Source of the DNA: a virus
Taxonomy: Duplodnaviria; Heunggongvirae; Uroviricota; Caudoviricetes
Strand: one strand, 5' to 3'
Virus record (IMG/VR): IMGVR_UViG_2660238358_000005
DNA length: 8,871 nucleotides
Position 1 is the first letter of the stretch, and each line of letters begins with the position of its first letter. A model generated the notes under the pieces. That model ran no database searches, had not been told where the DNA came from, and saw nothing but the letters and a program-made list of their open reading frames with translations. Of the stretch, positions 13 to 8,871 are shown piece after piece. The position numbers and the translations under genes are program-made.

Positions 13-414
13 TTAATTCGTGTACGTGATCTGGTACGTGATTTCCGCCATCGCCCAGGTGGCCATCTCATTATCACGTTGATAGTTAAAACCGAGTGGG
101 ATCATGGTGTCGATGAGTCCGGAAAGCACCGGAATATCCTTCATGGCCGGAAATATGGTGTTCTCCATCCACGTATCCAGCTCAGAATCCGGCGCCTGTG
201 CACGGACGAAAACGGCAATATGCAGAACAGCCTGCCAGTCGTCCTCATCCGTCATTTTTCCGGTGTACTGCGCATCACTCAGCCACACCGCCACGGCGGG
301 CAGTTCCTGCGCATCAATAAATGCCGGAAGCCCGTCAAAAAACGTGGCGCTGTCTCCACACTGTTCCCGAAGGCGTGCCAGCACGCTCTGACGGATTTGT
401 GTGTGTCGGTTCAT
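13..414 (-). CDS. U: Tail terminator protein gpU (lambda U homolog)
   Basis: 133-aa ORF aligns along its length with lambda gpU as I recall it (e.g. ATFFDG, FPAVAV, PDSELD.WME, LTY.ITY motifs). ATG at 414..412 overlaps the Z stop (ATGA overlap). Confidence 0.9.
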   Translation of the reverse strand: MNRHTQIRQSVLARLREQCGDSATFFDGLPAFIDAQELPAVAVWLSDAQYTGKMTDEDDWQAVLHIAVFVRAQAPDSELDTWMENTIFPAMKDIPVLSGLIDTMIPLGFNYQRDNEMATWAMAEITYQITYTN

Positions 415-998
415 TTACTCAGATGTAACCTCAGTTGTTGTTTCAGGGCATACCCCAGCTGTTTCGGCATTTCCGCAGCAATGATGCGGTCGCGGGCATC
501 TTCAAATGCCTGTGTCAGCGGTCCGGACATCGGGATTTTCACCACATCAATGGGGTAACGATTTTTGCCGTCAATACGCCGCATCACATGCCAGCGACCA
601 TTCGCCAGTTGCTGAATAAACGCATCCCGGAAAAGGTATTTCCCCACTTTCAGTACGCTGCCACGATGACGTGAGTTGCTGCCATGCCGGGAGCGGGCCA
701 GTCTGACCTGTGCGGTACCCAGCTTAATGGCGGGCAGGTTACCCCGGTTAACACGCATGCGGGCATACATTTTTCCTGAGGGGCTGGCTTTAAGCAGCCT
801 GACACGCTCCCTGACCGTTTTCAGGGGAATACCTTTCACCTGGTTATCCCCGGCAACGGTATTCTGCGCAACCTGCCGTGTGGCGACAGAAACAATCTTT
901 GCCGCCACACGGTTTACCGCCCATGCGCTGGTCTGTGGCACCATGCGGGTATCGAGGCTGTTCAGATTGCGGATGGCATTCTCAAGTCCCTTCATCAT
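411..998 (-). CDS. Z: Minor tail protein gpZ (lambda Z homolog)
   Basis: 195-aa ORF in the lambda position between FII and U, with size and sequence character matching lambda gpZ (about 192 aa). ATG at 998..996 preceded by GAGG; stop overlaps U start. Confidence 0.85.
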   Translation of the reverse strand: MMKGLENAIRNLNSLDTRMVPQTSAWAVNRVAAKIVSVATRQVAQNTVAGDNQVKGIPLKTVRERVRLLKASPSGKMYARMRVNRGNLPAIKLGTAQVRLARSRHGSNSRHRGSVLKVGKYLFRDAFIQQLANGRWHVMRRIDGKNRYPIDVVKIPMSGPLTQAFEDARDRIIAAEMPKQLGYALKQQLRLHLSK

Positions 999-1359
999 AT
1001 CGCCTCATTCTGGCATTATTCTGTGGGGCAGGACTGCCCCGCCTTAACCGGATATAACAGCATCCCCCGTCATCCGGAGTAATACGATCCACAAAGAAAG
1101 AATCATCCCCGATAGTTAACGTATCCTGACGGCGTAACTGCGATATATCTGCCGTTTTCACAAACAGGCACGGTGAGGAATCCTCAAGCCGGATCCCCCC
1201 GGCAACAAAAGAAATACTTTCGGGATCATCAAAAACCCCTGTCAGGTGTGTCCCCTCAAGTTCTCCGGACGTAATGACGGCGCTGATCCCCATATCACGG
1301 AGAATGACTTCATTGACACCGGCAAGCGCAGCATCAAACAGATTATCGAAACCGTCCAC
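982..1359 (-). CDS. FII: Head-tail joining protein gpFII (lambda FII homolog)
   Basis: Translation MDGFDNLFDAALAG...VFDDPESISF...SSPCLFVKT...LRRQDTLTIGDDSFFVDRITPDDGG matches lambda gpFII (MADFDNLFDAAI...VFDDPENISY...LRRGDTLTIGEENFWVDRVSPDDGG). Start is GTG at 1359..1357 with AGGAG 8 nt upstream; the 3' end overlaps the Z start by 17 nt. Confidence 0.88.
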   Translation of the reverse strand: MDGFDNLFDAALAGVNEVILRDMGISAVITSGELEGTHLTGVFDDPESISFVAGGIRLEDSSPCLFVKTADISQLRRQDTLTIGDDSFFVDRITPDDGGCCYIRLRRGSPAPQNNARMRRYDEGT

Positions 1360-1370
1360 GACATCTCCTG

Positions 1371-1757
1371 TTACTGCCTTTTTGCCAGACCACCTGCCGC
1401 CATGCTGGCAGCCACCTCAGCAGAAACACGAAACGACGTTCCCGGTGAAACAAATATCACTGAACCATTACATTTTGTATGCAGTGTCGCCAGTGCCACC
1501 ACCGTAACCTGCCCCGTTTCGTCTCCGGTAACAATGCCTGGCTGTTCAGGAACTGACTCGCCTTTATGCGCGGTCGGATCATCTTTCGATGGTGAGTACG
1601 TATCCGGCTCTGCGACCTCCCCCGCATCTCCAAGCTCTTCCTCCAGTTCCGCCACTCGCTGCGCAATATCTGCCGCACTACCGGAGACATCCGGTTCACG
1701 CCCCAGCCTCTCAGCCAGCTCACAAAGACGTTTCAGGTTTTCTTCTTTCGTAGCCAT
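1371..1757 (-). CDS. FI: DNA-packaging/head assembly protein gpFI (lambda FI homolog)
   Basis: Homology to lambda gpFI begins at the internal Met (MATKEENLKRLCELAERL vs lambda MTKDELIARLRSLGEQL), followed by an acidic low-complexity linker (ELEEELGDAGEVAEPD). ATG at 1757..1755 has AGGAG 6 nt upstream; the ORF-track start at 1790 lies inside the upstream hairpin and is rejected. Confidence 0.8.
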   Translation of the reverse strand: MATKEENLKRLCELAERLGREPDVSGSAADIAQRVAELEEELGDAGEVAEPDTYSPSKDDPTAHKGESVPEQPGIVTGDETGQVTVVALATLHTKCNGSVIFVSPGTSFRVSAEVAASMAAGGLAKRQ

Positions 1758-1775
1758 ACCCGCTCCTGATTGAAT

Positions 1776-1800
1776 GAAAAACGGGAGCATTTAGCTCCCG
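1776..1800 (-). terminator. Intrinsic-terminator-like stem-loop between E and FI (RNA: CGGGAGC-UAAAU-GCUCCCG followed by UUUUUCAUU)
   Basis: Perfect 7-bp GC-rich inverted repeat (1782..1788 / 1794..1800) with a 5-nt loop, followed on the minus strand by a T5 run (1777..1781); located 9 nt after the E stop codon and just before the FI ribosome-binding site. Confidence 0.45.
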
Positions 1801-1808
1801 CTCACGGA

Positions 1809-2837
1809 TTATTTCACCTGCACCACCACAAACTCATCCGGATCCGGCAGCACCATCAGCGGCGCGGACTGCGTCATGGTGAATTCACGCGCCGGATCAC
1901 CCACGGTCAGCCAGTGTTTCGGATAACGGGAAGACGCCACCACGCCTTCAGACAATGCCTGCGCATCCTGAATGGCACCGTAGCAACGAATACCCTCTGC
2001 GGCCGTATTTCCCAGTACCAGTGTGCCGTCCGGCAGATAACGTTTTTCGGTACCGTCCTCTGCCACATAGGACGTTTTTGCCACCACGATTGCCAGATCA
2101 CCATAATACCCTTTGAAGGACACCACCGCCCCCAGGTCTTTCACTGCCGTTTCCAGCTGTGAATTTGAGCCACGACGGGTATCCAGTTTTTCGCGGAACA
2201 GCTTAAAGCCATTCAGCAGACGCCAGACCTTACCATCCATAATGGCAATATTGATGGTGCCGGAAGCAAAATCACAGTACGCATCCAGATCATGCGTCGG
2301 ATCAAAGGTATCGCGGTCCTGAGCGCTCCACTCCGTCCCTCCTGCCTGCGTAATGTTATTTCCCACCGACCGGCCAAAATCGACCTCAACAGTTTCAAAC
2401 TGCTCTCCTTCCATGGTGTATTTGCCATACAGCACGGCATTCACCGCCTGCATCTCTTCCACCTGGACAATGGCGTGCTCTTCCTGTTTGAGGTTATCGG
2501 TGATGATACGCAGGCGACGGTAAGCCGGGCCGTTCAGCTGGGCCGGATCTTCACCGGGAAGACGCTCCACCGCCTGCTGGTAATTAAATTCGTGTTTCGG
2601 CTTAACGTAGCCCGGGCGCAGTACACGAGTTTCACCGCCACGGTGACGCAACACCTTTCCTTCAACAACCGGGGAGACATAGGCCGCCACCGGCGTTTTT
2701 CCGGTAATTTTGTCCAGCATTACCTCTTCGGTATGGAAATTCACCGTACGGCGGAAAAACAGCTCCAGAAACAGCGCACGAAATTTAACTTTTTGTTCGG
2801 TATAACCGAGTAACTGGCGGGTCGTAAACAATCCCAT
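1809..2837 (-). CDS. E: Major capsid protein gpE (lambda E homolog)
   Basis: 342-aa ORF collinear with lambda gpE (341 aa): PGYVKPKHE, QVEEMQAVNAVLYGKYTMEGE, NNITQAGGTEWS, KLDTRRGSNSQLETAVKDLG, MVLGNT, TGDPAREFTMTQSAPLMVLPDPDEFV. ATG at 2837..2835 with AAGGA upstream. Confidence 0.95.
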   Translation of the reverse strand: MGLFTTRQLLGYTEQKVKFRALFLELFFRRTVNFHTEEVMLDKITGKTPVAAYVSPVVEGKVLRHRGGETRVLRPGYVKPKHEFNYQQAVERLPGEDPAQLNGPAYRRLRIITDNLKQEEHAIVQVEEMQAVNAVLYGKYTMEGEQFETVEVDFGRSVGNNITQAGGTEWSAQDRDTFDPTHDLDAYCDFASGTINIAIMDGKVWRLLNGFKLFREKLDTRRGSNSQLETAVKDLGAVVSFKGYYGDLAIVVAKTSYVAEDGTEKRYLPDGTLVLGNTAAEGIRCYGAIQDAQALSEGVVASSRYPKHWLTVGDPAREFTMTQSAPLMVLPDPDEFVVVQVK

Positions 2838-3278: not shown

Positions 3279-4151
3279 TCATGGCATGGCCATGAGCATT
3301 TTCACGTCCGCATCACCGTCTGCTGACGTCTGTGGCACGCCACCCTGTACCGCTGCCGGTGAATGGTTCGCCATGAAATGTTCAAACATGGCGGGTGTGG
3401 GTGGAGGAAAACGGTNNNNNNNNNNNNNNNNNNNNNNNNNNNNNNNNNNNNNNNNNNNNNNNNNNNNNNNNNNNNNNNNNNNNNNNNNNNNNNNNNNNNN
3501 NNNNNGGGCATTCTCCACGGTCATCCCCGGACAGGCCGCCAGTTTTTCAGCCTGCGCCTCTGCCCCTTTTGCCTCATCCAGGGCCATAATCTGATCACGA
3601 AGTGAGGGTCCGGCATTCGCCTGCGGTGAAGCAGCCAGAATCGGACGGGCTTTTTCCACCGTCATCTCCGGCATCGCCGCCAGCGTTGCCGCCAGTTGTT
3701 CACGTCCTTTCGCCTCTTCACATGCCATAATGCGATCGGCTTCACTCTGCGCAGATACACCAGATTGTTGCGGTGCCGCCACGGCCAGAATCGCCCGGGC
3801 CTGCTCAACGCTCATACCCTGTTGCCCTGCCAGCATCGTGGCCAGTTGTTCACGTCCTTTCGCTTCCTGACACGTCAGGATCCCCATCACTCGCTGGTTC
3901 TCCTGCGCGGCAGCCTCCGTTGCAGTTAATTGCGGCATAGTGCCTCCTGTATCGTGTGTGTTCAGCGTCGCAGCCATCACGCTGATGGCGTCCGACGCAT
4001 TGATTAATTCATCCGCCAGTTCGGCCTCAATACCGGACTGACCTTCAAAAACGGCGGCCTCTGTTCCCATAACCGCATCCACAGATAAACCGGTATACAT
4101 CGCCACTTTTTCAGCAAACATCCGGCGCGCCGCATCAATGCGCTGCTGCAT
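3279..4151 (-). CDS. nu3: Putative nested scaffolding protein (lambda Nu3-like), in-frame internal start within C
   Basis: Inference from lambda, where Nu3 is translated in the C frame from an internal Met near the RIDA..RQMFAQKV region. Here in-frame Met codons occur at 4151..4149 and 4121..4119 in the homologous stretch (QDMQQRIDAARRMFAEKV). Neither has a strong Shine-Dalgarno, so the exact start is uncertain. Confidence 0.3.
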   Translation of the reverse strand: MQQRIDAARRMFAEKVAMYTGLSVDAVMGTEAAVFEGQSGIEAELADELINASDAISVMAATLNTHDTGGTMPQLTATEAAAQENQRVMGILTCQEAKGREQLATMLAGQQGMSVEQARAILAVAAPQQSGVSAQSEADRIMACEEAKGREQLAATLAAMPEMTVEKARPILAASPQANAGPSLRDQIMALDEAKGAEAQAEKLAACPGMTVENAXXXXXXXXXXXXXXXXXXXXXXXXXXXXXXXRFPPPTPAMFEHFMANHSPAAVQGGVPQTSADGDADVKMLMAMP

Positions 4152-4841
4152 GTCCTGGCGAACCTTTGCTGGCAGGGATTCAAACTGATTGCCATCCACC
4201 TTGTGCGATCCGGCGTAAATCAGCGTGATATCCACACCGGCCTGTGCCAGATGACCGGCATAGCTGACATGGCCCATCATCACCCCAATGGAGCCGATAC
4301 GGGATGTCTGGGTAACCAGCCGTCGGGAGCAGGCCGATGCCAGTAACATGGCGGCTGAACAGGCCGTGTCATTGCACAGTGCCCAGACAGGCTTCAGCTG
4401 CCGGAGACGGTAAATCATGTCAGCGCAGTCAAACGCGCCGGTGGCCTGCCCGCCAGAACTGTCAATGTCCAGCAGTACGCCCCGTACCTGAGTGTCCGCC
4501 ATTGCCTGCTGAAGACAGGCGACAATGCCGTCATAGCCAGTCATTCCGGAAAATGGCCGCATGCCACCCAGCCGGTGTACCAGCGTGCCGGTCACCGGCA
4601 GTACAGCAATACCGTTCACCACCCGGTAAACACGGGCAGGTCGTTTGCCTCCGGCCATGTACTCGTCCGTTTCAGCCAGCATCCCGGGAGCGTCAAGCTG
4701 TACCTGCTGTTGCGGTACCGAAAGGCTTGCTGCGCCCATCTCACGCCCGAGCGCGCAAAAGAAAACCCGCGCATAGGCGGGCTCCAGAAGCAGCGGCTCA
4801 TTGAATGCCGCAGCGATAATATGTGAAAGATTACGTCTCAC
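3279..4841 (-). CDS. C: Capsid assembly protease / minor capsid protein gpC (lambda C homolog, S49 peptidase-like); interrupted by an assembly gap so true length is unknown
   Basis: N-terminal two-thirds aligns with lambda gpC (AFNEPLLLEPAYARVFFCAL, NGIAVLPVTGTLV, SGMTGYDGI, GAFDCAD, KPVWAL, SRRLVTQTSRIGSIGVMM, ITLIYAGSHKVDGN, YTGLSV, TEAAVF, ADELINASDAI). Start is GTG at 4841..4839 with GAGGAG upstream, overlapping the end of B. The ORF runs through 90 N (3416..3505), so the C-terminal part and total length are unreliable. Confidence 0.85.
   Translation of the reverse strand: MRRNLSHIIAAAFNEPLLLEPAYARVFFCALGREMGAASLSVPQQQVQLDAPGMLAETDEYMAGGKRPARVYRVVNGIAVLPVTGTLVHRLGGMRPFSGMTGYDGIVACLQQAMADTQVRGVLLDIDSSGGQATGAFDCADMIYRLRQLKPVWALCNDTACSAAMLLASACSRRLVTQTSRIGSIGVMMGHVSYAGHLAQAGVDITLIYAGSHKVDGNQFESLPAKVRQDMQQRIDAARRMFAEKVAMYTGLSVDAVMGTEAAVFEGQSGIEAELADELINASDAISVMAATLNTHDTGGTMPQLTATEAAAQENQRVMGILTCQEAKGREQLATMLAGQQGMSVEQARAILAVAAPQQSGVSAQSEADRIMACEEAKGREQLAATLAAMPEMTVEKARPILAASPQANAGPSLRDQIMALDEAKGAEAQAEKLAACPGMTVENAXXXXXXXXXXXXXXXXXXXXXXXXXXXXXXXRFPPPTPAMFEHFMANHSPAAVQGGVPQTSADGDADVKMLMAMP
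3416..3505. other. Assembly gap: run of 90 N
   Basis: Directly visible in the sequence. It lies inside the C/Nu3 reading frame and abuts the tandem repeat region. Confidence 0.99.
3507..3890 (-). repeat. Tandem, diverged ~150-nt (50-aa) repeats, at least 3 copies, inside the C/Nu3 coding region
   Basis: Protein repeats IMGILTCQEAKGREQLATMLAGQQGMSVEQARAILAVAAPQ / IMACEEAKGREQLAATLAAMPEMTVEKARPILAASPQ / IMALDEAKGAEAQAEKLAACPGMTVENA...; at DNA level a 23-nt identical block occurs at 3691..3713 and 3841..3863, with related sequence about 150 nt earlier near 3538..3560. Confidence 0.8.
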
Positions 4842-6424
4842 GTGATGTTGTCTCCTCTTCCGGCCTGCGACTCTCCGCTATCTGCTGCTGATACGCCTGG
4901 GCTATCCACACCGGACGTGAGAGTCCGGCTTTTTCGCGCTCTGCGGATTCCCTGACCTGCTGGCGGAAAATGTCCTGATAATCTTCGCCCATCAGTGCCA
5001 GTTCTTTCTCATACGTGCTCAGTCCGGCCTCAATGCGCATCACCGATTCCTGGACCTCCTTGAGCCCGTCAATGGCCATTCTTCCGGAGCTAATCCACTC
5101 TGCCCGTGACCAGGCTGAACGCGCCTGGTAAAAATCAAAACGCGCCCGTGGCGGACGAATAATCCCCCGAAGAAGCGCCTCTTCCAGCCAGCAGGAAAAC
5201 ATCTGCGTGGCCAGCCGGGCCGCAATAAATTTTCGCCGCCCCATAAAATAGCGCCACGACTCATTGGCGGAGGCGCGGGCACTTGAGTAACTGACCTTCG
5301 AGTAATCACGGGACAACTGTTCGTAGGAAACGCCAAGACCGGCTGCAATATACCGCAGCAGCGCCTGTTCAAGCGCCGAAAATCCATTGTCTGAATCCTG
5401 CGCTGTCTGCAGGTTCAGCGCATCGCCAGGAAAAAAGGTGCGGAATTTTAACACCGCCCAGCGTCACGTTATTCGTGTCATACCAGCGGGTGAACTTCTC
5501 CAGAATATTAATAAGCGGATTATCCTGCTGACCTTGCGGTGCCCCCGCGATATATTCAAATGCCTTTTCGGTATCAAGTTCACTTTCGATTGTGGCTGCA
5601 TACATCGCCTTCACAATGGCCGACTGAAGCTGCGTGGCCTGCAGGGAGTCCAGCATCTTCATCCGCTCCATTACGCTGTAAAACTGATTAGCCCCACGGG
5701 TCTGCCCGTCCTCCACCGGCTCAAAAATATGCAGCATGGCCGGACGCCCGGTGGGAAGCTCACGCGGGATCCGCTCCCAGCGTCCGGCACCAGAGAACGG
5801 AAAATCATCCTCACAGATATGGTACGCAATCGCCCGCCCATACCGATCGACCTCAACCCCGGCCCGCAGAAAGTGGTTCCCCATACCGTGTCCTGGCGTG
5901 TCCACCCGTTTCGGACTCACGGCTTTAAAACGCGTACGGAATAACTGCGTGGTTTCCGTATCCCAGACCGGCTGCACAAAGATTTCGCCGTTAAAGGCAT
6001 GCACGCCCACCCCTTCACGGATAAATTCCGTAAACGTGCGTTTCCCTTCCACGTCGATCTCGCCAAACATTCCTTCTGCGTATTCCGACCAGGCTGCTTC
6101 CACCTCCCCGACAAAACTTTTTGCCGTGGTCTCCCGCATCCCCAGCCAACGCCAGTTCAGACGGTAGCTGATAAGAAACATGTGCCCGACGATATGATCC
6201 TTATGCAGGGCCACCGCATTAGCCGCGATACCGTTATTGCGCACCAGATCATCTGCCCGGGCATTCCCCAGACGCAATGCAGGCAACAGGGCCGCATCGG
6301 CACTCTGCGCCGGTGGTAACCACTCTGCCATTTGCCCGCCAAATCCTGCGCCGCCTCCGTTGTAGCTGAGACTCTCACGAAGCGGAACGCCGTTCACATC
6401 AATCAGGACAGGCGTTCGTTTCAT
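4831..6424 (-). pseudogene. B: Portal protein gpB (lambda B homolog), reading frame broken by a +1 frameshift in a homopolymer (pseudogene or sequencing error)
   Basis: The 351-aa ORF (6424..5369) matches the lambda gpB N-terminal two-thirds (GNARADDLVRNNG, KRTFT, REGV, HAFNGE, VSPKR, PVEDGQTRGAN.FYSVME.MKMLD.LQ.TQLQSAIVKAMYAATIESELDT) and the 207-aa ORF (5454..4831) matches the C-terminal third (PGDALNLQTAQDSDNG, LLRYIAAGLGVSYEQLSR, ARASANESW.YFMGRRKF, GRMAIDGLKEVQE, EAGLSTYEKE). The frames switch within the A6 run at 5431..5436; removing one base restores HLFPGDALNL, matching lambda HLMPGDSLNL. ATG at 6424..6422 overlaps the W stop. Confidence 0.85.
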
Positions 6425-6624
6425 AACCTCACTCCCAGCGGTCGGCGGCGTCGGGTCGTACCCAGAACCGACTCCGCATCGTTGATCGCACGGTTAAGCT
6501 CATTCAGGGACGCTGCCGTATATTCGATCCTGCGACCGTCTTTCTGTACCGACACAACCCGTTTACCGGTTAATAAATCAAGGCGCGCCTGACGCAGCGC
6601 CTGCAGTTCAGCGACTGTAACCAT
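6421..6624 (-). CDS. W: Head-tail joining / head completion protein gpW (lambda W homolog)
   Basis: 67-aa ORF; LLTGKRVVSVQKDGRRIEYTAASLNEL matches lambda gpW ([27 protein letters not shown]). ATG at 6624..6622 directly follows the A stop (TGAATG). Confidence 0.9.
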   Translation of the reverse strand: MVTVAELQALRQARLDLLTGKRVVSVQKDGRRIEYTAASLNELNRAINDAESVLGTTRRRRPLGVRL

Positions 6625-8535
6625 TCACTCCTCCGGACAGCTTCGCTGCCAGTTCTTCAAGGGTCGGTTGTGCAGTTGCATCCTTGCGGGATGCAACTGC
6701 ACAGCCAGATCAAGTTGCCAGCGTTGCACGGACACACGTAATGCCGCATAGGCATACACCAGGCAGTCCAGCGCTTCGTTACGCCGCTTTTTGTTATCCC
6801 ACAACAGACGCATCTTTCCTTTTTCCCACTTTTCCACCAGTTCCTCCGCCACCAGTTGTTGTGCCTCTGTCTGCGAAAAAATCTCCGGATTATCAGGAAA
6901 GCGGATGGCATACGATGTGGCCTCATTCACAGGGGTGGGATCGGCCTTCATTCGGGCATAGAGAATTTCTTTTGCGGTATCCGTCCCCACCTCACACAGA
7001 TACACACCCCGCTGATTGCGGGTTTTCGGCATGGTGATCACCGGCTTGCCATAGACAGAGGCACCTTTTACCGGCAGTACCCGGAAAATACCGTGTTTTT
7101 TTGACCTCTGATACACGATTTCGCCATCGATCCCCCCGATATCCCAGCAGACACGGGAAATGGTCATTTCGGTACCGTCTGCATGGCGGTATTTTTTATT
7201 GATCGCCGCATCCACACGTAACAGCGTCTCTTCCTCATCAGGACGTCCCATGATGATGATTTTATCCACCAGAAAGGCTTCCTCTCCCGGAGCCCACCCC
7301 CAGACATACATCTCAAAACGGTTTCGCTGCGAGTCAATGCCCGCCGTCAGATAAACCACCCGGACAGGCACCGTTGCCGTGTAAGGCACAACCTTATCCA
7401 TCAGTACCTGGTGATCGAGTTTTTCGCCCACGGCCTCTTCCCAGGTCTCGCCCAGCGTGGTGTTCACAAAAGTTTTCACGCCGTTGGGATCTTTCAGTGC
7501 ATCCAGCCAGTCACAGACTATCTGTACCCTGGTGGTGAACGGACTGTACGCCGTCCATATATGGAAAGTGATGGAGCGCGGCGGCGGAATTTCATTACCC
7601 GAAGCACTGAAAAACGTCAGACCGTCACACGTCCACATCCCGGTATTGTCACAAATCCAGCGCCCCCCGGTCTGATCAAGTTCAGACTGACGGATCACGC
7701 AGCCATTATGTTCACACAGGTAATACACCGTTTCCGGTTTACCCTTCTCCCATTTCAGGCCAAACGACGTCGCATCATCGCCAAACTTCAGATACTGCTC
7801 CTCCCCGCAATGAGGGCAAGGGACATAAAACCGCATGAAATGCGCAGATTCATTCGCAGCTTTTTCAATCTGACAGGAGCCTTTAATTTTTGGCGTTGAA
7901 CCGCGTATGGATTTTGGCCATACCGAACCTTCAATACGTTTATCGCCAAGCAGTGTTGGCGAACCTTCTTTTTCCACATCCGGTTCAAACGAGGAGAGTT
8001 CGTCATAGCAGACCACATCGACAGATTTTTCACGGTAGTTTTTGGCAGCAGCACCACCCAAACACCAGAACCCCACACCAGAGGAAAAACGCTTCAGTGT
8101 GAGCGTATTATCCCGGTGTTTCCGGCCCAGCCAGGGAGAAAGTTTTTTCAGGCAAGGAACATCACGAATTGTTGCTTCCACGTGAGACTTCATAAAATCT
8201 TCAGCAGCTGAGTCCGTCGGCTGAAAAAGAAGAGTGTTGCGGGATTTGTGCTCAATAAAATACCCGATCACACCAAGCACCATTTTTGTATAACCAACAC
8301 GGGCAGATTTAATCAGGTTAACTGTACGAATCTCGTCATTGCCCATGCAGTTCATGATGGCGACCTGAAACTGCAGCGTTTTCCATTCCCCCTCACCGTA
8401 TGACGATTCTTTAGGCAGGTAATAATTTTGATCGGCCCATTCTACAGCCGTCACCGGCAATACCCTGACCAGTGGCTGCAGTGCGATAGTGACTGCCACC
8501 ATCATATTACTCAGTTGTTGTTCTGATATATTCAT
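6625..8535 (-). CDS. A: Terminase large subunit gpA (lambda A homolog)
   Basis: Collinear homology over the full length with lambda gpA: TAVEWAD.NYYLPKES, VKSARVGY.KM.LGV..YFIEHK.RNTL, RDNTLT.KRF, GFWCLGG.AAKNYREKSVDV, GSPT.LGDKRIEGSVWPKSIRGSTPK, CPHCGEEQYLKFGD, HIWTAYSPFTT, TFVNTTLGETWE, YLTAGIDSQ, SKKHG.FRV.P.KGASVYGKPV, TEAQQL.AEE.VEKW, KKRRNEALDC. Start set at ATG 8535..8533 (MNISEQQ, as lambda MNISNSQ), not the TTG at 8592 used by the ORF track. Confidence 0.95.
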   Translation of the reverse strand: MNISEQQLSNMMVAVTIALQPLVRVLPVTAVEWADQNYYLPKESSYGEGEWKTLQFQVAIMNCMGNDEIRTVNLIKSARVGYTKMVLGVIGYFIEHKSRNTLLFQPTDSAAEDFMKSHVEATIRDVPCLKKLSPWLGRKHRDNTLTLKRFSSGVGFWCLGGAAAKNYREKSVDVVCYDELSSFEPDVEKEGSPTLLGDKRIEGSVWPKSIRGSTPKIKGSCQIEKAANESAHFMRFYVPCPHCGEEQYLKFGDDATSFGLKWEKGKPETVYYLCEHNGCVIRQSELDQTGGRWICDNTGMWTCDGLTFFSASGNEIPPPRSITFHIWTAYSPFTTRVQIVCDWLDALKDPNGVKTFVNTTLGETWEEAVGEKLDHQVLMDKVVPYTATVPVRVVYLTAGIDSQRNRFEMYVWGWAPGEEAFLVDKIIIMGRPDEEETLLRVDAAINKKYRHADGTEMTISRVCWDIGGIDGEIVYQRSKKHGIFRVLPVKGASVYGKPVITMPKTRNQRGVYLCEVGTDTAKEILYARMKADPTPVNEATSYAIRFPDNPEIFSQTEAQQLVAEELVEKWEKGKMRLLWDNKKRRNEALDCLVYAYAALRVSVQRWQLDLAVQLHPARMQLHNRPLKNWQRSCPEE

Positions 8536-8830
8536 CGAGTAAATCCGGTAATTTATCCCCCGCACGCGCGCACTGATTCGCTCCCTTAGCAATAAGGATT
8601 TTCAGATGATCAATATGACGCGGCGTTAAATCCGGGAACTGTCGTTGCATGGACAAAGGAATGGAGTCAAGCGTACTGGATAAAGCCATCGCCAGCTTAC
8701 TAAGGGCAAAAATACAAAATCCGGTATCGATAAGATTTCCTTTTGACACCTGATTTTTTAACTGCTGTGCGACAGCCTGTTCTGCGGTCAGTTCCCATCT
8801 GGCAATGAGTAGTTTGAGGTGTACTGGCAA
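8507..8830 (-). CDS. nu1: Terminase small subunit gpNu1, C-terminal portion only (roughly the last 100 residues by homology); 5' end unresolved and possibly disrupted
   Basis: GFCIFALSKLA...LDSIPLSMQRQFPDLTPRHIDHLK...LPDLLDEYI matches the lambda gpNu1 C-terminal region (AFCTFVLSRIA...LDGLPLSVQRRFPELENRHVDFLK...IPGLLSEYI). The 3' end overlaps the A start by 29 nt, as in lambda. The ORF-track start at 8830 is a TTG; an in-frame TAG lies at 8842..8840. Confidence 0.75.
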   Translation of the reverse strand: MPVHLKLLIARWELTAEQAVAQQLKNQVSKGNLIDTGFCIFALSKLAMALSSTLDSIPLSMQRQFPDLTPRHIDHLKILIAKGANQCARAGDKLPDLLDEYIRTTTE

Positions 8831-8871
8831 TAGCGGACACTACCATTTGTTCTTTTTTTAAGCAGCCATCT

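What the first reader, a model, noticed from the sequence alone, without database searches (positions are those of the whole stretch)
8831..8871. nu1 reading frame meets in-frame stops before its expected N-terminal domain
Homology to lambda gpNu1 covers roughly its last 100 residues and ends at 8830. Going upstream in the same frame there is TAG at 8842..8840 and TAA at 8860..8858, and all three minus-strand frames contain stops within the last 41 nt of the window. The expected N-terminal DNA-binding domain of Nu1 therefore cannot be encoded contiguously here. A T7 run at 8853..8859 is a possible indel site, but a single indel there cannot remove the TAG at 8842..8840. Options: a truncated small terminase (defective prophage), a recombination junction with a different N-terminal module, or further draft errors.
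Basis: partly seen in the sequence, partly recalled or inferred. Interest (0 to 1): 0.45.

Follow-up and report, generated by a model that had tools for sequence, protein, structure and literature searches.

The report
IS600 cuts off prophage nu1 gene
The small-terminase (nu1) gene stops short because the last 57 bases of the window are the end of an IS600 insertion sequence that replaced the gene's front part in a decayed Shigella flexneri prophage, which is an ordinary and already sequenced situation.

Summary
The two in-frame stops (TAG 8842..8840, TAA 8860..8858) and the T7 run are real. The statement that all three minus-strand frames carry stops in the last 41 nt is wrong: the other two frames are open.

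Window 8815/8816..8871 is the right terminal 57 nt of IS600 (IS3 family, 1264 bp). The TAA is the genuine stop codon of the IS600 transposase orfB (...HQMAA*).

Window 3506..8871 is 100% identical to finished Shigella flexneri chromosomes, including 2457T (AE014073). In those genomes one complete IS600 sits between a C-terminally truncated Rz lysis gene and nu1 codon 68. Its flanks (GGG / AAC) are not a target-site duplication.

A 99.7%-identical E. coli prophage carries an intact 169-codon nu1 and 2989 bp between the two breakpoints. So IS600 replaced the Rz 3' end, the nu1 5' end and everything between them, which by analogy with lambda included cos.

The same prophage also has frameshifts in the large terminase and portal genes.

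Verdict: an IS-truncated pseudogene in a defective prophage, already known, not a draft error at this site and not a new N-terminal module. Interest is low.

The parts
8507..8815 (-). 3' remnant of the nu1-type small terminase gene: codons 68-169 plus the stop of a 169-codon gene. Base 8815 is shared with the IS end, so the breakpoint is ambiguous by 1 nt.
   Evidence: 100% protein identity to residues 68-169 of the intact E. coli FDAARGOS_943 protein WP_074132335.1. DNA identity to intact alleles stops at 8815. Pfam Phage_Nu1 68.8 bits on profile positions 85-163 of 164. phrog_57 positions 87-189 only. Matches lambda Nu1 residues 86-180 at 45% identity.
8816..8830 (-). IS-derived first five codons, including the TTG 'start', of the mechanical 107-codon ORF 8507..8830. 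This is not nu1 sequence.
   Evidence: the ORF listing. Alignment of the ORF to the intact protein starts at ORF residue 6. The bases are identical to the IS600 right end in L002 and L008.
8815..8871 (-). Right terminal 57 nt of IS600 (IS3 family), with the transposase in the same orientation as nu1. It includes the imperfect terminal inverted repeat at about 8815..8843 (TGAGGTGTACTGGCAATAGCGGACACTAC on the + strand).
   Evidence: 59/59 identity to the IS600 copy in Stx2a phage LC616045. Continuous with a complete 1264-bp element in L008 8458..9721. That element is 99.5-99.7% identical to elements annotated by RefSeq as 'IS3-like element IS600 family transposase'.
8858..8869 (-). Last three codons (M A A) and the TAA stop codon of the IS600 transposase orfB. 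This is the 'TAA at 8860..8858' of the finding.
   Evidence: The orfB translation ends ...REKYHQMAA* in L002 and in L008 8860..9678. The NCBIfam IS3 family transposase model scores 336 bits.
6625..8535 (-). Terminase large subunit gene (gpA type), overlapping the nu1 3' end by 29 nt. Its last ~30 codons are frameshifted relative to the intact relative.
   Evidence: Pfam GpA_ATPase and GpA_nuclease. 636 aa against 642 aa, with a different C-terminus caused by a 1-nt deletion at about 6698.

Best explanation
The nu1 reading frame ends because the window runs into an insertion sequence. Window 8815/8816..8871 is the right end of IS600 (IS3 family, 1264 bp). The upstream TAA is the stop codon of the IS600 transposase orfB, and the TAG lies in the IS terminal inverted repeat.

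The window comes from a lambdoid prophage of Shigella flexneri. In the full chromosomes a single IS600 joins a C-terminally truncated Rz gene to nu1 codon 68. Rz is cut after codon 134 of 155, and its stop is supplied by the IS's own TGA.

The two flanks are not a target-site duplication. An intact relative has about 3 kb between the two breakpoints. So this was not a simple insertion. IS600 replaced the Rz 3' end, the intervening accessory genes, the nu1 5' 201 nt that encode the DNA-binding N-domain, and, by analogy with lambda, the cos site.

The likely routes to this state, all inferred, are:
- homologous recombination between two directly repeated IS600 copies, one in Rz and one in nu1;
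- an IS-mediated deletion of one flank.

The remaining 102 nu1 codons are a pseudogene remnant. Together with frameshifts in the large terminase and portal genes, this makes the prophage unable to package DNA.
For: Shown:
1. Intact alleles match the window only up to 8815 (99.2-99.8% identity, annotated 'terminase small subunit'). Positions 8813-8871 instead match a multi-copy element, with up to 43 places per genome, on both chromosomes and plasmids.
2. That element is a 1264-bp TG...CA element. It has orfA (HTH_Tnp_1) and orfB (rve; NCBIfam IS3 transposase, 336 bits). It is 99.5-99.7% identical to RefSeq-annotated IS600.
3. Window 3506..8871 is 100% identical to S. flexneri chromosomes, including AE014073 (2457T). 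The same junction is present in all 10 fetched loci and in CP182556 and CP178302.
4. The left flank of the IS is Rz truncated at codon 134 of 155. The right flank is nu1 from codon 68 of 169.
5. The flanking triplets are GGG and AAC. An IS600 copy in an Stx2a phage has a clean ATT/ATT 3-bp duplication.
6. In E. coli FDAARGOS_943 the two breakpoints are 2989 bp apart. That interval holds the Rz 3' end, a DUF4406 gene, four hypothetical genes and the nu1 5' end.
7. None of that interval, and no N-terminal nu1 fragment, occurs within +-10 kb in the S. flexneri loci.
8. The intact protein covers phrog_57 profile positions 12-189, as lambda Nu1 does (11-188). The remnant covers only positions 87-189.

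Inferred:
- cos lay in the lost interval. In lambda, nu1 starts 191 nt from the cos end.
Against: - The window itself holds only 57 nt of the IS. Everything beyond 8871 is taken from other genomes that are identical over 3506..8871, not from the source assembly.
- The content of the interval lost in the S. flexneri ancestor is not known. It is modelled on one E. coli relative whose lysis region is only 94.6% identical.
- No cos sequence was identified in the relative. The lambda cosN 12-mer is absent.
- No pre-deletion intermediate, meaning IS600 in nu1 with the 5' part still attached, was found in GTDB representative genomes or JGI metagenomes. The route to the deletion therefore remains unresolved.
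Confidence: 0.95

Rival explanations
1. Simple IS600 insertion into an otherwise complete nu1: the N-terminal 67 codons and cos lie intact just beyond the 1264-bp IS.
For: IS insertion into prophage genes is the commonest event, and the window alone cannot exclude it. A control IS600 copy shows what a simple insertion looks like, with an ATT/ATT duplication.
Against: In every S. flexneri chromosome with an identical right junction, the other side of the IS is Rz codon 134. The flanks GGG and AAC do not match. No nu1 N-terminal coding sequence occurs within 10 kb.
Confidence: 0.03
2. Sequencing or assembly artefact: a chimeric contig end or indel errors in a draft create false stops in a really continuous nu1.
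For: The window is draft-quality elsewhere. It has a 90-N gap at 3416..3505 and divergent bases next to the gap. The T7 run at 8853..8859 is a typical indel site.
Against: The 57 nt are a perfect match to a real mobile element. The junction is identical in finished genomes from independent projects. The T7 run belongs to IS600 and is present in all copies.
Confidence: 0.01
3. Modular exchange: a small terminase whose lambda-like C-terminal half is joined to a different, non-lambda N-terminal DNA-binding module encoded upstream.
For: Even the intact relative shows BLASTP and Pfam similarity to lambda Nu1 only in its C-terminal half. So N-terminal modules in this family do diverge strongly.
Against: That divergent N-module (67 codons, aligned to phrog_57 positions 12-86) is exactly what is missing here. 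Upstream of 8815 are two stops, a transposase gene and a lysis gene, with no HTH-encoding ORF in phase.
Confidence: 0.01

Closest known systems
IS600 (IS3 family insertion sequence of Shigella and E. coli)
   Same: The 57 nt at the window end are identical to the IS600 right end. The full element in the matching genomes is 1264 bp, has TG...CA termini, imperfect inverted repeats and orfA/orfB, and is 99.5-99.7% identical to RefSeq-annotated IS600.
   Different: This copy lacks the 3-bp target-site duplication seen at a control copy. That indicates a later deletion or IS-IS recombination. Only the terminal 57 nt lie inside the window.
Bacteriophage lambda gpNu1 (terminase small subunit, Pfam PF07471, phrog_57)
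   Same: The C-terminal half is 45% identical to lambda Nu1 residues 86-180. From established knowledge of lambda gpNu1, this half carries self-assembly and gpA binding. The gene overlaps the start of the gpA-type large terminase gene, as in lambda.
   Different: The N-terminal DNA-binding half (phrog_57 positions 1-86) is absent and there is no natural start codon. Intact alleles of this gene are 169 aa, and their N-half is too diverged from lambda's for BLASTP.
IS-riddled defective lambdoid prophages of Shigella flexneri (e.g. in strain 2457T, AE014073)
   Same: Window 3506..8871 is identical to that chromosome (L008). The gene order is Q - holin - lysozyme - Rz' - IS600 - 'nu1 - A - W - portal (split) - protease - D - E - tail genes.
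   Different: Nothing substantive. The window adds only a scaffold gap and a few low-quality bases.

Membership tests
IS600 / IS3 family insertion sequence | Near-identity of the DNA to elements curated as IS600 | tested here: met
   Window 8813..8871 matches the IS600 copy in LC616045 at 59/59. The full 1264-bp element of L008 is 99.5-99.7% identical to RefSeq 'IS3-like element IS600 family transposase' loci.
IS600 / IS3 family insertion sequence | TG...CA termini with imperfect terminal inverted repeats | tested here: met
   IRL is TGAGGTAGCCTGAGTTTAACGGACACTCC. The reverse complement of IRR is TGAGGTGTACTGGCAATAGCGGACACTAC, and the element ends ...CCTCA.
IS600 / IS3 family insertion sequence | Two consecutive ORFs: orfA with an HTH and orfB with a DDE (rve) transposase domain | tested here: met
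   Seen in L008, outside the window. orfA is 100 aa with HTH_Tnp_1. orfB is 272 aa with HTH_21, rve and rve_3, and scores 336 bits against NCBIfam transpos_IS3 (cut-off 160). Only the last codons of orfB lie in the window.
IS600 / IS3 family insertion sequence | 3-bp direct target-site duplication flanking a simple insertion | tested here: not met
   The flanks are GGG and AAC in all S. flexneri loci. The control copy in L002 has ATT/ATT. This is read as evidence for a secondary deletion or recombination, not against the element's identity.
Lambda Nu1-type terminase small subunit (PF07471, phrog_57) | C-terminal half (self-association and gpA-interaction region) homologous to Nu1 | tested here: met
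   Pfam Phage_Nu1 scores 68.8 bits (cut-off 30) on profile positions 85-163. BLASTP to lambda Nu1 residues 86-180 gives 45% identity, E 5e-28.
Lambda Nu1-type terminase small subunit (PF07471, phrog_57) | N-terminal winged-helix DNA-binding domain that recognises cosB | tested here: not met
   The remnant covers phrog_57 positions 87-189 only, while the intact relative covers 12-189 and lambda Nu1 covers 11-188. Two stops and IS600 sequence lie upstream. No N-terminal fragment occurs within 10 kb.
Lambda Nu1-type terminase small subunit (PF07471, phrog_57) | Gene lies immediately upstream of, and overlaps, the large terminase gene | tested here: met
   The nu1 stop is at 8509..8507 and the A start is at 8535. 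The same arrangement is seen in lambda, with nu1 at 191..736 and A at 711..2636.
Functional cos-packaging lambdoid prophage | cos site upstream of nu1, plus intact nu1, A and portal genes | tested here: not met
   The region upstream of nu1 is replaced by IS600. Gene A is frameshifted at its C-terminus and the portal gene is split into 351 + 207 aa. cos itself could not be recognised by sequence; the lambda cosN 12-mer is absent from the intact relative.

The most novel reading that the evidence does not exclude
The retained C-terminal half of Nu1, which in lambda carries the self-assembly and gpA-binding region, might be kept and expressed by read-through from the IS600 transposase transcript. 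It could then act as a dominant-negative decoy against the terminase of superinfecting lambdoid phages. The evidence does not exclude this, but nothing supports it: there is no promoter-like site, no natural start codon, and the neighbouring genes are also decaying.
Probability: 0.02. Interest if true: 0.45.

Novelty: already known. Interest (0 to 1): 0.06.

Why it matters
It matters little beyond annotation hygiene. The ORF at 8507..8830 should be labelled a 5'-truncated nu1 pseudogene adjoining IS600, not a small terminase or a novel variant. The prophage should be scored as defective: cos and the nu1 5' end are deleted, and the large terminase and portal genes are frameshifted. It is one more example of IS-driven prophage decay in Shigella. 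It also shows that contig ends in draft assemblies often sit a few dozen bases inside an IS.

Tried and rejected
1. Pre-deletion intermediate. I looked for the nu1 5' part joined to the IS600 left end, allowing a 0-8 nt spacer. There were no matches in GTDB representative genomes or in JGI metagenome contigs. The choice between two-IS recombination and one-sided deletion therefore stays open.

2. cos site. I searched the intact relative's nu1-upstream region for the lambda cosN 12-mer with up to 2 mismatches. There was no match, so loss of cos rests on analogy with lambda.

3. Solved-structure homologues. The search with the intact 169-aa protein returned only chance-level hits. NCBIfam has no model for it. 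Pfam on the N-terminal 70 aa gave only a sub-threshold Sigma70_r3 hint.

4. Tandem repeat. I looked for one to explain the apparently longer protease gene. None was found. The extra length is a 90-N scaffold gap.

5. Promoter and terminator scan between IS600 orfB and gene A. Nothing was found.

6. Inversion or translocation instead of deletion. Rz', IS600 and 'nu1 are collinear and in the natural phage order and orientation, so a deletion is the parsimonious reading. A whole-genome search of S. flexneri for reciprocal junctions was not possible with these tools.

Full report
**1. The observation**

On the minus strand the nu1 frame reads MAA* KKNKW* CPLLPVHLKLLIARWELTAEQ....
- The TAA is at 8860..8858 and the TAG at 8842..8840.
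- The T7 run at 8853..8859 is also present.
- The mechanical ORF is 8507..8830 (107 codons, TTG start).
- The statement that all three minus-strand frames contain stops in the last 41 nt is wrong. The frames starting at 8871 and 8870 are open there.

The ORF matches lambda Nu1 residues 86-180 (45% identity, E 5e-28). It matches Pfam Phage_Nu1 only on profile positions 85-163 of 164. So the core observation holds: a C-terminal half of Nu1 preceded by stops.

**2. What the last 57 bases are**

Megablast of 8300..8871 against complete E. coli genomes finds prophages with an annotated, intact 'terminase small subunit' at 99.2-99.8% identity. Every such match stops at window 8815.

The remaining bases, 8813..8871, match a different, multi-copy sequence. 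It occurs up to 43 times per genome, on both chromosomes and plasmids. It also occurs in Stx2a phages.

In Stx2a phage LC616045 this sequence is the end of a 1264-bp element with these features:
- termini TG...CA;
- imperfect inverted repeats (TGAGGTAGCCTGAGTTTAACGGACACTCC and TGAGGTGTACTGGCAATAGCGGACACTAC);
- a 100-aa orfA and a 272-aa orfB that ends ...REKYHQMAA*.

orfA carries HTH_Tnp_1. orfB carries HTH_21 and rve, and scores 336 bits on the NCBIfam IS3-family transposase model. The element is 99.5-99.7% identical to loci that RefSeq annotates as 'IS3-like element IS600 family transposase'.

Hence the ATG GCT GCT TAA at 8869..8858 is the genuine 3' end of IS600 orfB. It happens to be in phase with nu1. 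The TAG lies in the IS terminal repeat.

**3. Where the window comes from and what lies beyond it**

The window's 636-aa large terminase is encoded verbatim in many Shigella flexneri genomes.
- Window 3506..8871 is 100% identical to eight of the ten fetched loci, including AE014073, strain 2457T (L008). The other two differ by one base.
- In L008 the IS600 occupies 8458..9721, exactly 1264 bp.
- The gene order is antiterminator Q, holin, lysozyme, Rz', IS600, 'nu1, A, W, portal, S49 protease, D, E, FI, FII, Z, U, V, G/T, tape measure.

So upstream of the IS there is no nu1 5' end. There is instead an Rz lysis gene cut after codon 134 of 155, whose stop codon is the first TGA of the IS.

All fetched loci that reach the left end share the same two junctions. 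The nu1-IS600 junction also occurs in CP182556 (S. flexneri) and CP178302.

**4. Insertion or deletion?**

The three bases flanking this IS600 are GGG on the left and AAC on the right. The IS600 copy in the Stx2a phage is flanked by ATT/ATT, the expected 3-bp duplication.

In E. coli FDAARGOS_943 the head region is 99.0-99.7% identical to the window over 3506..8815. There, the two breakpoints are 2989 bp apart. That interval holds the last 21 Rz codons, a DUF4406 gene, four hypothetical genes, an intergenic region, and the first 67 codons of a 169-codon nu1.

None of that interval, and no N-terminal Nu1 coding sequence, is found within +-10 kb of the junction in the S. flexneri loci.

The event was therefore a replacement of roughly 3 kb by one IS600, not a simple insertion. 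Because Rz', the IS and 'nu1 remain collinear and co-oriented, a deletion is the parsimonious reading. Possible routes are:
- recombination between two direct IS600 copies;
- a one-sided IS-associated deletion. IS transposition, and IEE-promoted excision of IS3-family members, are both reported to delete IS-flanking DNA (PMC9397093, introduction).

I could not find an intermediate allele, so the route is inferred, not shown.

By analogy with lambda, where nu1 starts 191 nt from the cos end of the genome, cos lay in the deleted interval. I could not recognise a cos sequence in the relative.

**5. What is missing from the protein**

The intact relative and lambda Nu1 both span the small-terminase profile phrog_57 almost end to end, at positions 12-189 and 11-188. 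The window's remnant covers only positions 87-189.

The intact relative's N-terminal 70 residues are too diverged from lambda's for BLASTP or Pfam. So lambda homology would have faded near 8800 even in an intact gene. But those 67 codons exist in relatives and are absent here.

From established knowledge of lambda gpNu1, the N-terminal domain is the winged-helix cosB-binding domain, and the C-terminal part carries self-assembly and gpA binding. The remnant therefore lacks DNA recognition, a natural start codon and a promoter-like site. It is a pseudogene.

**6. Other lesions in the same prophage**

Relative to the intact relative:
- The large terminase gene has a 1-nt deletion and three substitutions at about 6694..6699. 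These change its last ~30 residues.
- The portal gene has one extra base in the A/T run 5431..5436. This splits it into 351 + 207 aa.

Both lesions are present in finished S. flexneri genomes, so they are real and not draft errors.

The window does contain a 90-N scaffold gap at 3416..3505, with poor bases next to it.

**7. Comparison, novelty and verdict**

This is IS600, a known IS3-family element, truncating a Nu1-type small terminase gene in a known, sequenced, defective lambdoid prophage of Shigella flexneri.

The 'different N-terminal module' and 'draft error' options are not.

Novelty is 'already known', and interest is low (0.06). The only non-excluded novel reading, an expressed dominant-negative Nu1 C-terminal fragment, has no support (probability about 0.02).

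Noticed in passing
window 3416..3505 (and 3380..3415): A run of 90 N lies inside the S49 protease/scaffold gene, so the ORF listing reports a spuriously long 520-codon ORF. The roughly 35 bases next to the gap differ from all S. flexneri genomes and look like low-quality draft sequence.
   Followed up: yes
window 6669..6703: In the large terminase gene, a 1-nt deletion plus three clustered substitutions relative to E. coli FDAARGOS_943 turn a quasi-palindrome into a perfect 15-nt inverted repeat (6669..6683 / 6689..6703, 5-nt loop). They also frameshift the last ~30 codons (636 aa against 642 aa). This looks like a template-switch mutation. The lost C-terminus aligns with the lambda gpA tail.
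   Followed up: partly
window 5431..5436 (ORFs 5369..6424 and 4831..5454, minus strand): The portal gene is split into 351 + 207 aa by one extra base in a 6-nt A/T run. The same change is present in finished S. flexneri genomes, so it is a real frameshift.
   Followed up: partly
L010 7525..8829 and L016 1935..3225: In some S. flexneri-type genomes the IS600 at this locus is itself interrupted at IS position 372-377 by another IS, about 1.3 kb long with ends TGAACCGCCCCGGG... This is a nested insertion.
   Followed up: no
L003 4432..5853; L004 1..1167: A group II intron-type reverse transcriptase gene (RVT_1 + GIIM) sits between the Q antiterminator and the holin gene of this prophage in one strain. 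It sits at a different place in another strain.
   Followed up: no
L013 5633..5842 (intact relative, outside the window): The N-terminal 70 residues of the intact small terminase have no BLASTP or Pfam similarity to lambda Nu1's DNA-binding domain. They align with it only through the phrog_57 profile. PHROGs also holds separate families for the N half (phrog_7289) and the C half (phrog_1790), which suggests split or truncated nu1 genes recur in phage records.
   Followed up: partly
L013 3312..3491 and 5095..5274: A 180-bp direct repeat (94% identity) lies within the Rz-to-nu1 accessory region of the intact E. coli relative. Its meaning is unknown.
   Followed up: no
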